In this document: in pieces, positions 33,001 through 36,000 of the stretch
How positions within the stretch are numbered: position 1 is the first letter of the stretch
Layout: every line of letters begins with the position of its first letter
Assembly: GCA_000002445.1 (NCBI GenBank)
Contig: CM000207.1
Span: forward strand, 96,001 to 160,000
Length of the DNA: 64,000 nt
Reading direction: 5' to 3'
Source: Trypanosoma brucei
Taxonomy: Eukaryota
Made by a program: the position numbers

Positions 33001-36000
33001 CCAAAGGCGTCACTGGGTGGAGCTCACCTAACGGAGGTGATGATGTCGTATTTTCTAAAGAGGTAAACATAACTAAAGGAACAAAAGAACAAAGCAGCCG
33101 AGCTCTAAACCTTCTGAAATCATCCATAACGCCGACAGCATGCGCAGTAGGTCTACAGGATTTCAATTCCATGGCCAGTAAACAAGCATTTAGGCGGCAA
33201 GCCATTCGAACCTTCCTCGCGAACCCAGATAACGAACAGAGTGAACCAACCGATGCTCAGAAACTGCAGGAAGCATTGGATACAGCTTATGGAAAAGAAG
33301 GAGACTTCAAAACCAAGTTCTGGCAAGCTGTCGAGCAGACTAAAGCAGCTGTCACCAAAAACAAGCAAAGAATCGACGTCGACATCAAGCCAAGTATATC
33401 GATGGCGTTGCTAACTGAAGCCCTGAGCAGGCGGCTAGGTGAAATGACCGCCAAAAAAAAGAAAAGTCCAGAGGCGCCAGTTGAGGGGGAAGCAGCACAA
33501 GAGACAGCCAAACCAGAAGATAAGAAAGGCGGGGATAATAAAGCTGCAACTGCAAATTGCACCAGCCATTCAACGGAAGATGCCTACACAAAAGGACAGA
33601 ATTGCAAACTGGAAAATAAGCTTGCAAATATTCCTCTATTCTAGCAAACAAGAAATTCACTCTGATGGTTTCTGCTTCTTTGGCCTTGCTGTTTTAATTA
33701 CCCTCTTTTTTAAAAGAATTTTGCTGTTTCATATATTTTAACACCTAAATTACCTGAAAAATAATTAATTTTTTTGTCTGCCTGTAGGTGTATTTTTTTG
33801 ACTGAAATTTCTCTTTTTTTTCCAGCTCTTTTTTTAAATATTTTTAGGTTTAAATTTTTTAGGTGTTTTTTTAAGATTTTTGATATTTTATCGATTTTTG
33901 AATATTTGTATTCGAGCTATTAGTTTAATTTTTTTTAGTTTTTTTTCATTTTTCCAAATTTTTTAGCTTGATTATTATTTGAATTTTTTTAATTTTTACG
34001 GTTATAAATTTATTGTTATTTTTTAGTTTTTTTGTGTTTTTTCTGAAAGTTTGTTTAAAGTGGAGTTCAAATTAAAATAAAAAAGAAGGAAAGAAGAAAT
34101 TCGGTTTATTATGGTTATGGTTAGGGTTAGGGTTTTTAAGTTTTGGGGGTATTTTTTAATTCTCTTTTTTTAAAATTAGGGTTTTGTGTTTTAATTCGCC
34201 ATTTTTTAATTGTAAGTGATGCAGCGGCTTTTTTACGTCAATCCTAATCATTTTTCTACCAGAAGACAACTTTTATTCATATTTTTCACCTGCAGCGCCG
34301 CAAGATTTGTTACTTTCTTTTTGCTTTTGTGAATTTCAGCTCTGCGTTTTGCGCTTCGCGCGGCCTTTAAAATTTAAAAAAAACGTTGGGGCTTGGCCTA
34401 TAGCGCTGCGCGCCGCTTTTCTTTTTACGCTTCAATGAGGACTTTGGCTGCGCGAAACGACTTGCTTTTCAAGAGACGCTAACAAACAAAACTTAATATT
34501 TGGAAGTGGAACAATATGGAGTTCGGAAGATAAAGCCAGCCGAAATAACAGTCTGTACCGGTCGTGGCGCGGCACAGCAACCTAGCCAAAGCAAGCGGAA
34601 GCGGCAAGCGGTTAACTCCAGCGTCAGCAGGGCAATGCAGGTACGTCGCCATTCCCCAACAGATCCGGCAGCGCCAGTCAAGGATTTTAATGCAGGACCC
34701 ATAATCCCTACTGGCATAAATCCACTGCAAAAACCAACTAAGAAACACAGAAGTAGAGGAAAAGAATAAATGCAAAACTCCAGCAAACAAAACAGCAGAA
34801 GGGTGTGCGGCCATTGACTATTACTATGATGAAACTAACAAAGAATACAAGACAAAACCAGGAAAAGAAAACACATCAACAGGAACAGGAAAGACAAGTA
34901 CCGGAGTAGACTGCAATAAACACCAAACACAGCGAGCCTGTGAAGCGGAAAACAAGGATGTAAAACCGGGTCAGAAAGCAGTATCTGGATGTATTGAGGA
35001 TAAGTGCAAAGATTTATTTTTTCTCTTCAGTAAGAATTTTGCTCTGATGGCTGCTTCTTTTGTGAGCTTGGTACTATTCAAGGATTTTGAATTTTTAAAT
35101 TTGTTATTTTGAGAGAATTTGATATATTTCAACACCTCCTGATGATAATGTGCAAATTTTAAAAACACAAAATTATAAAATTATGGTTTCAAATTGTCCA
35201 TGGTTGTATCGTACTAATTTTATAAGAATATTAAAAGATTTATAGTGTAATTTGCTTTATTTTTCTTGTTTTATGAACGTTAGTTAGGGTTATAATAGTG
35301 ATAGTAAGGTGAAAGATAAGAGTAAGTTGTTAGTGTGCATATACTAATAATATACTAAGAGCAGTAATTATGATTAAAGTAATCATAATCATAATAATCA
35401 TAATTGTGTGTGCTGTGAGTGTATGATAATAATATAAGTGATGAACACAAATTGAATGCTCCAAATAATAGCACTTGAAGCGATAGCAAGGGTTTAATGA
35501 AGTAAGTGGGAAAAGTAGTGTGAGAGTGAGTGCTTGGGAGAGAAAGAGAACAAGAGGAACATTATGAAAGATAATGGAGAATAATTTTTTTAAAAAATGA
35601 AAATGAAAGATAAGTAGCTTACAATAAATACAAAACAATGTTCGTCTTTATACACAAGAAGATTATCGGGGAACAATATGAAAGAGACAAAATAGAGCGC
35701 AATGACCAACTATGGTCACCCCATAAGCTGCCGCGCACACACCACAGAAATTTGTGATGTATCAGTATTAGTAGGAGAAGATTGTGGCCAACATGTCACT
35801 GAAGATCTACAGATTTAGCAACACAAATTGTGATAACAGCAATAGTAACATTAGTTTAAAAGACACGATGATGGGACTTTCATGACAAAACAGGGTGGTT
35901 GATTAATTATTACAGGAAACTGGTAATATTCATAGAACATTTAAAATAATCAGTACAACTAGCTACTTCCATTCATATAACTATGCATAGAGGTAAATTT

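What the first reader, a model, noticed from the sequence alone, without database searches (positions are those of the whole stretch)
33697..35135. Interstitial telomere-like tracts just 3' of VSGs, each followed by a conserved ~290-bp unit and an orphan VSG 3' end
After the VSG ending at 33697 there is a T-rich tract, then ggttagggttaggg (34103-34135), then a ~290-bp unit (34216-34500), then a C-terminal-domain-only VSG fragment with 16-mer (34770-35135). The same arrangement recurs after the intact VSG ending at 41913: TTAGGT/TTAGGG x6 at 42130-42172, unit at 42387-42700, a second TTAGGG tract at 43052-43087, unit at 43102-43385, and an orphan C-terminal fragment at 43440-43770. A VSG followed within about 0.2-0.4 kb by TTAGGG is the layout of telomere-linked VSGs (expression-site or minichromosomal). 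These may be fossil telomere ends internalised into the array, or footprints of telomere-mediated healing or conversion. I do not recognise the ~290-bp unit as a named element.
Basis: seen in the sequence. Interest (0 to 1): 0.7.

Follow-up and report, generated by a model that had tools for sequence, protein, structure and literature searches.

The report
Telomere-type VSG flanks inside array
Two surface-antigen (VSG) genes inside a silent Trypanosoma brucei gene array carry the downstream sequence normally seen next to chromosome ends, including short telomere-like repeats, which suggests these genes were copied from, or once sat at, a telomere; this extends a known feature and is not a new kind of element.

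Summary
The window is a T. brucei brucei TREU927 silent VSG array. The VSG at 40315-41913 is 100% identical to XP_803379.1.

- **Tracts:** TTAGGG x2 occurs at only three places (34103-34135, 42108-42172, 43050-43087). All are on the VSG sense strand; 0.14 matches are expected by chance.
- **Module:** Each tract sits in the same composite: a block of 51-59% T, degenerate then perfect repeats, 'ttctcttttt', then a unit starting AGTGATGCAGCGGCT.
- **Unit copies:** The three copies are 71-76% identical.
- **Independent locus:** A variant of the layout, lacking the unit body, follows an unrelated VSG inside a T. equiperdum contig.

So these are not assembly joins, and not three independent healing events.

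Published work describes 'TTAGGG-like' repeats 3' of telomere-proximal VSGs. It also describes a T2AG3-like tract just 3' of VSG221 that lies inside the true telomere and seeds new telomeres after breakage.

My reading is that these are array-internal copies of the telomere-proximal VSG 3' flank. They are joined to the C-terminal domain of a resident array VSG, whose 3' end is left as an orphan at the normal distance from the next 70-bp repeats.

The ~290-bp unit is non-coding and matches no RNA family. I could not compare it with expression-site sequences. Interest is modest: a known kind of feature in an unusual place.

The parts
32259..33697 (+). VSG pseudogene upstream of locus A (in-frame stop at 33642-33644; frame breaks)
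   Evidence: ORF list and translations; sequence
33698..33744 (+). Short 3'UTR of locus A VSG with CCCTCTTTTTTAAAAGAATTTTGCT and the 16-mer (33729-33744)
33750..34100 (+). T-rich block (54% T against 24% in the window)
   Evidence: about 70% similar to 42837-42986
34103..34135 (+). Telomere-like tract A: TTATGG x2 then TTAGGG x2 (degenerate proximal, perfect distal)
34136..34214 (+). T-rich linker with 'ttctcttttttt' and a solitary TTAGGG at 34176
34215..34503 (+). Unit A (starts AGTGATGCAGCGGCT)
34504..34752 (+). Unassigned segment between unit A and the orphan CTD; no match to VSGs or to the rest of the window
34753..35097 (+). Orphan VSG C-terminal domain (almost the whole Pfam PF10659 domain) with GPI signal
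35120..35135 (+). 16-mer of the orphan's array-type 3'UTR, 200 bp before the next 70-bp repeat core
40315..41913 (+). Intact VSG (532 aa), 100% identical to XP_803379.1 / EAN76229.1 of T. b. brucei TREU927
41914..41993 (+). Short 3'UTR: TTTCCCCCCTCAACTTTTCCC (2 mismatches to the VSG221 3'UTR primer 221Uxho), 8-mer TTGCTACT (41960-41967), 16-mer (41978-41993)
41994..42107 (+). Short T-rich block (51% T)
42108..42172 (+). Telomere-like tract B1: TAGG x3, G8 run, (AGTTAGGTT) x4, TTAGGG x2 plus TTA
   Evidence: aligns with L001 826-856
42173..42375 (+). 'cttttcctcttttt', a C-rich motif, and two partial 5' copies of the unit (cores at 42233 and 42291)
42376..42690 (+). Unit B (42376-42600) plus about 90 bp of extension shared with unit C
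42691..43040 (+). T-rich block (58% T); the only strongly negative AT skew in the window
43050..43087 (+). Telomere-like tract B2: TTTCGGG, TTAGCGGG, TTCGGG, TTAGGG x2, TTAG
43101..43440 (+). Unit C (43101-43370) plus extension
43523..43778 (+). Orphan VSG C-terminal fragment (frameshifted); 81% identical in DNA to the CTD at 30010-30227
43865..43880 (+). 16-mer of the orphan's array-type 3'UTR, 209 bp before the next 70-bp repeat core

Best explanation
These are array-internal copies of the conserved 3' flank of telomere-proximal VSG genes.

**What the flank contains.** It runs from a short VSG 3'UTR (8-mer plus 16-mer type), through a T-rich spacer, to a T1-2AG1-6 / T2AG3-like tract whose repeats become perfect at the distal end. 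Beyond that come one or more blocks made of the AGTGATGCAGCGGCT unit plus more T-rich DNA.

**How it got here (inferred).** A VSG cassette that sat next to a telomere, or a copy of one, was joined together with 0.8-1.5 kb of its downstream flank to an array cassette. The join lies at about the start of the resident VSG's C-terminal domain. That resident's C-terminal domain and 3'UTR remain as the 'orphan', still at the normal distance from the next 70-bp repeats. The join could come from a one-ended repair of a deprotected chromosome end (break-induced replication or microhomology joining). It could also come from a gene conversion that began in the upstream 70-bp repeats. Later cassette duplication and divergence would give the present 71-76% identity.

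**What it may do (inferred).** The tracts themselves need not ever have been chromosome ends. They may remain latent telomere seeds. A break distal to one, followed by resection, could be healed by telomerase at the tract, leaving the upstream VSG about 0.2-0.4 kb from a new telomere.

**Shown versus inferred.**
- Shown here: the anatomy, the homology among copies, the recurrence in a second genome, and the orphan's normal spacing.
- Shown in the literature: TTAGGG-like repeats 3' of telomere-proximal VSGs, and telomere seeding at the VSG221 tract.
- Inferred: the direction from telomere to array, the joining mechanism, and the seeding ability of these particular tracts.
For: **Enrichment and orientation.**
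- Tracts occur at three sites only, all on the VSG sense strand, against 0.14 expected.
- In every tract, including the T. equiperdum one, degenerate repeats are proximal and two perfect TTAGGG are distal. This is the polarity of a subtelomere-to-telomere transition.

**Match to the published telomeric flank.**
- The VSG221 expression site has 46 bp of T1-2AG1-6 followed by degenerate T2AG3 repeats just 3' of the gene. This tract lies inside the true telomere, and healing events mapped to it (PMC1807955; PMC3610638).
- Tract B1 (TAGG x3, G8, TTAGG/TTAG repeats, TTAGGG x2) fits that description.
- VSG-to-tract distances here are 406, 195 and about 200 bp. The second tract of locus B lies 1137 bp from the stop codon. 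Both fall within or at the edge of the 200-1590 nt VSG-to-telomere range of expression-site clones.

**3'UTR class.**
- The module-linked VSGs have a different 3'UTR class from their neighbours: short, with CCCTCTTTTT...TTGCTACT close to the 16-mer.
- Locus B matches the VSG221 3'UTR primer with 2 mismatches; no other site in the window matches.

**The orphans belong to the array.**
- Their 16-mers lie 200 and 209 bp from the next 70-bp core, like the 198-310 bp of the ordinary cassettes.
- The upstream VSGs' 16-mers lie 1591 and 2096 bp away.

**Independent junctions.**
- The flank-to-orphan junctions differ between loci. After unit A there is 250 bp of unassigned sequence. After unit C there is a shared extension. 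In L001 the junction comes directly after a T-rich block.
- The orphan domains are also of different types.

**Recurrence.** The layout from VSG stop through 3'UTR, T-rich block, tract and partial unit aligns at 74% with L001 600-1030. That locus lies 26 kb inside a 126-kb T. equiperdum contig and follows an unrelated VSG.
Against: - **No sequence-level comparison with a real telomeric flank.** T. brucei expression-site and minichromosome DNA is not in any collection I could reach. The match to the VSG221 tract rests on a published verbal description plus one primer.
- **The unit's place in genuine telomeric flanks is untested.** Four published primers from the VSG2 (VSG221) expression-site flank and a silent expression-site flank do not match the module at up to 4 mismatches. 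That is a weak test, given the ~70% identity among unit copies.
- **The flank may be an ordinary array flank class.** Three of roughly 18 cassettes examined (window plus L001) carry it. If that frequency holds genome-wide, the flank may be shared by array and telomeric genes, and the direction 'from telomere' would be unproven.
- **The tracts are short.** They are 33-65 bp with only two perfect repeats, against 106 bp at VSG221. Seeding ability is uncertain.
Confidence: 0.6

Rival explanations
1. True fossil chromosome ends. Each tract is what is left of a terminal telomere that eroded to a few repeats. It then became internal when the end was fused to, or extended by, other DNA (the unit and what follows).
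For: - The orientation is correct, and the repeats run from degenerate (proximal) to perfect (distal).
- The second tract of locus B lies 1137 bp from the VSG stop, a plausible VSG-to-telomere distance.
- In locus B the blocks repeat in tandem (tract-unit-T-rich-tract-unit). This resembles subtelomeric elements separated by internal telomere tracts, such as yeast Y' arrays (my own knowledge).
Against: - The same unit, joined through the same 'ttctcttttt' linker, follows every tract. The junction TTAGGGTTAGGGTTACTTTT is shared with T. equiperdum. At most one ancestral internalisation is therefore needed, not one per tract.
- At VSG221 a tract of this kind exists natively inside the real telomere.
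- This rival overlaps the best explanation. The sub-terminal tract of telomeric flanks could itself be an older fossil end.
Confidence: 0.2
2. An ordinary class of VSG cassette flank, or a dispersed array repeat, that happens to contain telomere-like hexamers. It would have no telomeric history and would have spread only by cassette duplication within arrays.
For: - It is fairly frequent: 2 of about 13 cassettes in the window and 1 of about 5 in L001.
- The copies are as diverged (71-76%) as other paralogous cassette flanks.
Against: - The literature treats TTAGGG-like repeats 3' of a VSG as a mark of telomere-proximal genes.
- The associated 3'UTR class resembles that of VSG221.
- The orphan C-terminal domains show that each module-bearing segment was joined to a pre-existing array cassette at a different point.
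- There are no hallmarks of a mobile element. There is no conserved ORF and no Rfam match. I saw no terminal repeats or poly(A) tail on reading the sequence; no dedicated search for them was run.
Confidence: 0.15
3. Assembly artefact or chance. Telomeric reads were wrongly joined into the array, or hexamers recur at random in low-complexity DNA.
For: VSG arrays are repetitive and hard to assemble. The tracts lie in low-complexity, T-rich DNA.
Against: - 0.14 matches are expected against 5 observed, and none of 100 shuffles reaches 5.
- The tracts are short and degenerate, not long perfect arrays.
- Both flanks are diverged paralogues of one another.
- A variant of the arrangement is present in an independent long-read assembly of another subspecies.
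Confidence: 0.02

Closest known systems
T2AG3-like / 'TTAGGG-like' tract 3' of telomere-proximal VSG genes (Aline & Stuart 1989, as cited in PMC3708902; VSG221 expression site, AJ271641 nt 211-322, in PMC1807955)
   Same: - The position is the same: about 0.2-0.4 kb 3' of a VSG, on the sense strand.
- The make-up is the same: T1-2AG1-6 followed by degenerate T2AG3 repeats.
- The upstream 3'UTR is of the short 8-mer/16-mer type.
- More non-telomeric sequence follows distally.
   Different: - Here no true telomere follows. The flank runs into an orphan VSG C-terminal domain, then 70-bp repeats and further cassettes.
- The tracts are shorter (33-65 bp against 106 bp).
- Sequence-level homology to AJ271641 could not be tested.
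Interstitial telomeric sequences of vertebrates, inserted by telomerase during double-strand-break repair (PMC7215372 abstract)
   Same: Short internal runs of TTAGGG.
   Different: Those are independent insertions with unrelated flanks and an empty orthologous site. Here both flanks are homologous among copies, and the tract is part of a larger duplicated composite.
Tandem subtelomeric elements separated by short internal telomere tracts, such as yeast Y' elements (my own knowledge)
   Same: Locus B shows a tract-unit-T-rich-tract-unit periodicity, with all tracts in the telomere-ward orientation.
   Different: The organism and sequences are different, and the unit has no ORF. The blocks here lie inside a gene array, followed by more genes. 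No evidence of recombination-based telomere maintenance was tested.
3' donation / C-terminal-domain boundaries in VSG gene conversion (PMC3708902)
   Same: The breakpoints that leave the orphan fragments fall at the start of the C-terminal domain. This is the same region where conversion tracts end during VSG switching.
   Different: In 3' donation the resident C-terminal domain is fused in frame to the incoming N-terminal domain. Here a complete VSG, its 3'UTR and a telomeric-type flank lie between, so the resident domain is left unattached.

Membership tests
T2AG3-like tract of telomere-proximal VSG 3' flanks | Lies a few hundred bp 3' of a VSG ORF, G-rich strand on the VSG sense strand | tested here: met
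   The distance from stop codon to tract is 406 bp (locus A), 195 bp (locus B) and about 200 bp (L001). All are on the + strand.
T2AG3-like tract of telomere-proximal VSG 3' flanks | Composition: a T1-2AG1-6 run followed by degenerate T2AG3 repeats (106 bp at VSG221) | tested here: inconclusive
   The style is the same in tract B1 and in L001 (TAGG, a G-run, TTAGG/TTAG, TTAGGG x2). The tracts are only 33-65 bp long. The comparison is with a published description, not with the sequence itself.
T2AG3-like tract of telomere-proximal VSG 3' flanks | A true (TTAGGG)n telomere follows within about 0.2-1.6 kb | tested here: not met
   An orphan C-terminal domain, 70-bp repeats and further VSG cassettes follow. 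In L001 a further 26 kb of contig follows.
T2AG3-like tract of telomere-proximal VSG 3' flanks | Sequence homology of tract and flanks to expression-site or minichromosomal VSG flanks | not testable with these tools
   No T. brucei expression-site DNA is reachable: the VSG221 protein has no contig on record. The only link is a 2-mismatch match of the 3'UTR to primer 221Uxho.
T2AG3-like tract of telomere-proximal VSG 3' flanks | [quoted passage not shown] | not testable with these tools
   This was shown experimentally only for the VSG221 tract.
Interstitial telomeric sequence inserted at a repaired break | Independent insertions with unrelated flanking sequence | tested here: not met
   The upstream T-rich block and the downstream linker plus unit are homologous among all copies.
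Head-to-head telomere fusion relic | A TTAGGG array abutting an inverted CCCTAA array | tested here: not met
   The window has no CCCTAA x2 on the + strand near the tracts. L001 has only a 30-nt, 70%-complementary inverted pair 553 nt apart.
Structured RNA gene or protein-coding gene (for the ~290-bp unit) | A conserved ORF, protein homologues, or an RNA family match or covarying structure | tested here: not met
   - The ORFs from the shared ATG differ in frame and length among the copies.
- There are 0 hits among 1.84 billion representative proteins.
- There is no credible Rfam match; the best has E 0.3.
- The consensus fold is weak, with a covariation term that penalises it.

The most novel reading that the evidence does not exclude
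The recurrent join 'telomere-type VSG flank to the start of a resident C-terminal domain' may be the footprint of how VSG arrays grow. A deprotected telomeric VSG end repeatedly captures array DNA by one-ended repair, so that former telomeric genes become internal. The tracts left behind would stay competent telomere seeds. Array breaks could then be healed just 3' of an intact VSG, creating new telomeric VSG ends. This would be a two-way traffic between arrays and telomeres, recorded in the sequence.
Probability: 0.25. Interest if true: 0.6.

Novelty: new member of a known kind. Interest (0 to 1): 0.35.

Why it matters
TTAGGG-like repeats 3' of a VSG have been used as a marker that a gene is telomere-proximal (PMC3708902). 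Finding the same kind of flank at about one cassette in six inside arrays has three consequences.
- The marker is not fully specific.
- The relics give a sequence record of exchange between telomeric and array VSG loci, which could be counted genome-wide and compared among strains.
- If the tracts can seed telomeres as the VSG221 tract does, they mark the places where a broken subtelomere can be capped with an intact VSG next to the new end. That is relevant to how new telomeric VSGs and small chromosomes arise.

None of this overturns current views of antigenic variation.

Tried and rejected
**Attempts to reach T. brucei DNA outside the window.**
- Exact-protein look-ups failed for three intact VSGs of the window and for the identical TREU927 record.
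- VSG221, recovered at 100% identity, has no contig on record.
- A profile of VSG C-terminal domains returned only two hits, neither with a contig.
- Only T. equiperdum loci were obtained: L001 was informative, while L002 and L003 lack a 3' flank.
- Exact-pattern scans of metagenome and prokaryote contigs for the unit and for the partial unit found nothing, as expected.

**Is the unit a gene?**
- There are no protein homologues and no credible Rfam match.
- There is no convincing conserved RNA structure.

**Primer comparison.** Primers from the VSG2 (VSG221) expression-site flank and a silent expression-site flank (PMC11229358 supplement) do not match the module at up to 4 mismatches. This is uninformative, given the divergence among copies.

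**Rejected readings.**
- Head-to-head fusion was considered because of CCCTAA-like motifs after the partial units in L001. It was rejected for the window.
- Three independent healing events were rejected because both flanks are shared among copies.

**Literature.** Ten full-text searches found no description of array-internal telomere-like tracts in T. brucei. The most relevant older papers are not held: Marcello & Barry 2007 (both papers) and Wickstead et al. 2004 were looked up by id and are not held, and Aline & Stuart 1989 and Berriman et al. 2005 have no PMC id in the reference lists I saw and could not be read. Prior description therefore cannot be excluded.
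Full report
**What the window is.** The + strand carries a run of VSG cassettes.
- The VSG 3'UTR 16-mer TGATATATTTTAACAC (at most 3 mismatches) occurs 12 times on the + strand, against 1.4 matches expected on both strands together.
- 70-bp repeat cores recur between the genes.
- The intact gene at 40315-41913 is 100% identical to XP_803379.1 / EAN76229.1, a VSG of Trypanosoma brucei brucei TREU927 on a 3.06-Mb record.
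- The finding therefore lies in a published subtelomeric silent VSG array.

**Observation: telomere-like tracts.** TTAGGGTTAGGG with at most one mismatch is found at three sites only, all on the VSG sense strand. The sites are 34115-34132, 42158-42169 and 43064-43081. Shuffles give 0.14 expected and none of 100 reaches the observed 5 matches. Read in full, the tracts are:
- 34103-34135: TTATGG x2, then TTAGGG x2.
- 42108-42172: TAGG x3, G8, (AGTTAGGTT) x4, TTAGGG x2, TTA.
- 43050-43087: TTTCGGG, TTAGCGGG, TTCGGG, TTAGGG x2, TTAG.

In each tract the degenerate repeats are proximal to the VSG and the perfect ones are distal.

**Observation: the unit and the orphans.**
- The unit begins with an exact AGTGATGCAGCGGCT at 34215, 42385 and 43101.
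- A profile of the three copies finds full-length copies nowhere else in the window.
- The copies are 71-76% identical.
- The orphan C-terminal fragments are real. 34753-35097 covers positions 10-104 of the 104-position Pfam C-terminal domain (E 1e-12). 43523-43778 is a frameshifted C-terminal domain.

The repeated thing is a composite, not a tract plus an unrelated unit.
- The order is: a T-rich block (51-59% T against 24% for the window), then the tract, then a linker 'ttctcttttt', then the unit.
- Sequence on both sides of the tract is homologous among copies.
- Locus B holds two such composites in tandem, plus two partial 5' copies of the unit at 42233 and 42291.

**The VSGs upstream of the composites.**
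- They have a short 3'UTR with CCCTCTTTTT...TTGCTACT close to the 16-mer.
- The other cassettes of the window have long 3'UTRs without that motif.
- The locus B 3'UTR matches the published VSG221 3'UTR primer TTTCCCCCCTCAAATTTCCCC with two mismatches. No other site in the window matches.

**The orphans belong to the array.**
- In ordinary cassettes the 16-mer lies 198-310 bp before the first 70-bp repeat core.
- The orphans' own 16-mers lie 200 and 209 bp before it.
- The 16-mers of the complete upstream VSGs lie 1591 and 2096 bp away.
- So the orphan C-terminal domain plus 3'UTR is the tail of a resident array cassette.
- The complete VSG with its composite flank sits where the resident's N-terminal part should be.
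- The junctions differ between loci. After unit A there are 250 unassigned bases. After unit C there is the shared extension. The orphan domains are also of different types. The joins are therefore separate events.

**A second genome.** The only other trypanosome DNA I could fetch with a usable flank was a 21.6-kb stretch of a 126-kb T. equiperdum contig (L001).
- There, an unrelated VSG ending at 624 is followed by a short 3'UTR of the same class and a short T-rich block.
- Next comes GGGGGGTTAGTTAGGTTAGGGTTAGGGTTA, then the same linker, then three partial units (cores at 897, 981 and 1389).
- More T-rich DNA follows, then an orphan C-terminal domain and 70-bp repeats.
- This stretch aligns with locus B at 74% from the end of the ORF through the first partial unit. 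The junction TTAGGGTTAGGGTTACTTTT is identical.
- The locus lies 26 kb from the contig end.
- This rules out an assembly join and shows a dispersed family.
- L001 lacks the body of the 290-bp unit. It has CCCTAA-like motifs with C-runs after the two partial units that match AGTGATGCAGCGGC (981, 1389), in inverted orientation to the tract. The window shows this only faintly.

**What is known.**
[quoted passage not shown] They use this to recognise minichromosomal donors (PMC3708902).
- Glover and colleagues describe a T2AG3-like tract in the VSG221 expression site, just 3' of the gene: 46 bp of T1-2AG1-6, then 10.5 degenerate repeats. It lies inside the true telomere. After the telomere was cut off, all mapped healing events occurred within this tract, in about 10% of cells (PMC1807955; confirmed in PMC3610638).
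- The VSG-to-telomere distance in 17 expression-site clones was 200-1590 nt (PMC2567434).
- The tracts here fit that description in position, strand, repeat style and associated 3'UTR.

**Interpretation.** The best-supported reading is that these are array-internal copies of the telomere-proximal VSG 3' flank, joined to resident array cassettes at about the start of the C-terminal domain.
- They are not three independent fossil ends or healing scars, because the flanks on both sides are shared.
- The VSG221 precedent shows that such a tract can be a standing sub-terminal feature.
- Whether the ancestral tract was once a terminal telomere remains open.
- The direction (telomere to array) and the mechanism (one-ended repair of a deprotected end, or conversion from the 70-bp repeats) are inferences.
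- That the tracts could still seed telomeres is an inference from the VSG221 experiments. These tracts are shorter.

**The unit.**
- It has no conserved reading frame and no protein homologue among 1.84 billion representatives.
- It has no credible Rfam match and no convincing conserved fold.
- Its start is a pyrimidine run, AG, four bases, then ATG. It looks like a trypanosome splice-acceptor followed by a start codon. With three diverged copies this cannot be told from chance.
- I could not test whether it occurs in genuine expression-site or minichromosomal flanks. That is the main gap.

**Limits.**
- No T. brucei expression-site, minichromosome or other array sequence was reachable.
- The key older papers are not held.
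- Ten literature searches found no description of array-internal tracts, but prior description cannot be excluded.
- The estimate of about one cassette in six rests on roughly 18 cassettes.

**Verdict.** It is wrong in treating each tract as a separate fossil end or healing footprint. This is a known kind of feature in a less expected place, of modest interest, with a clear set of analyses that would settle its origin.

Noticed in passing
window 10436, 35284; L001 2526: A solitary TTAGGG marks the 5' edge of the first 70-bp repeat of a cassette (ttagTTAGGGttataat...). It accounts for 2 of the 5 solitary TTAGGG hits that lie outside the module regions (12 TTAGGG hits in the window in all), and for the only one outside the module in L001. 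It could offer microhomology between telomere repeats and 70-bp repeat boundaries.
   Followed up: partly
window 39545-40315: The cassette of the intact VSG at 40315-41913 has three full 70-bp repeats with long TAA runs. Only about 0.47 kb separates the last repeat from the start codon, against 1.5-2.4 kb in the other cassettes. This cassette is therefore atypical upstream as well as downstream.
   Followed up: partly
window 61848-62930 (minus strand): A 360-aa ORF matches Pfam ESAG1 (E 1.8e-115). It is on the strand opposite to the VSG array. This is expression-site-type material at the edge of the array.
   Followed up: no
L001 1010-1030, 1208-1217, 1419-1440: CCCTAA-like motifs followed by C-runs on the VSG sense strand lie after two of the three partial units in the T. 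equiperdum locus (those at 981 and 1389). They are inverted relative to the TTAGGG tract at 826-856 (30 nt, 70% complementary, 553 nt apart). Only faint counterparts exist in the window (34247 cctaatc; 43133 ccctaagcctc).
   Followed up: partly
window 34205-34232, 42375-42402, 43090-43118: Each unit starts with a pyrimidine run, AG, four bases and ATG (…tttttaAGtgATGcagcggct). This resembles a trypanosome trans-splice acceptor followed by a start codon. The downstream reading frames are not conserved among the three copies.
   Followed up: partly
window 42001-43000: This is the only 1-kb bin of the window with a strongly negative AT skew (-0.35, against +0.03 to +0.47 in most other bins). It is caused by the T-rich blocks on the VSG sense strand.
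   Followed up: yes
window 34504-34752 and 43371-43520: The segments between the units and the orphan C-terminal domains match no VSG by translated search and nothing else in the window. Their origin is unknown.
   Followed up: partly
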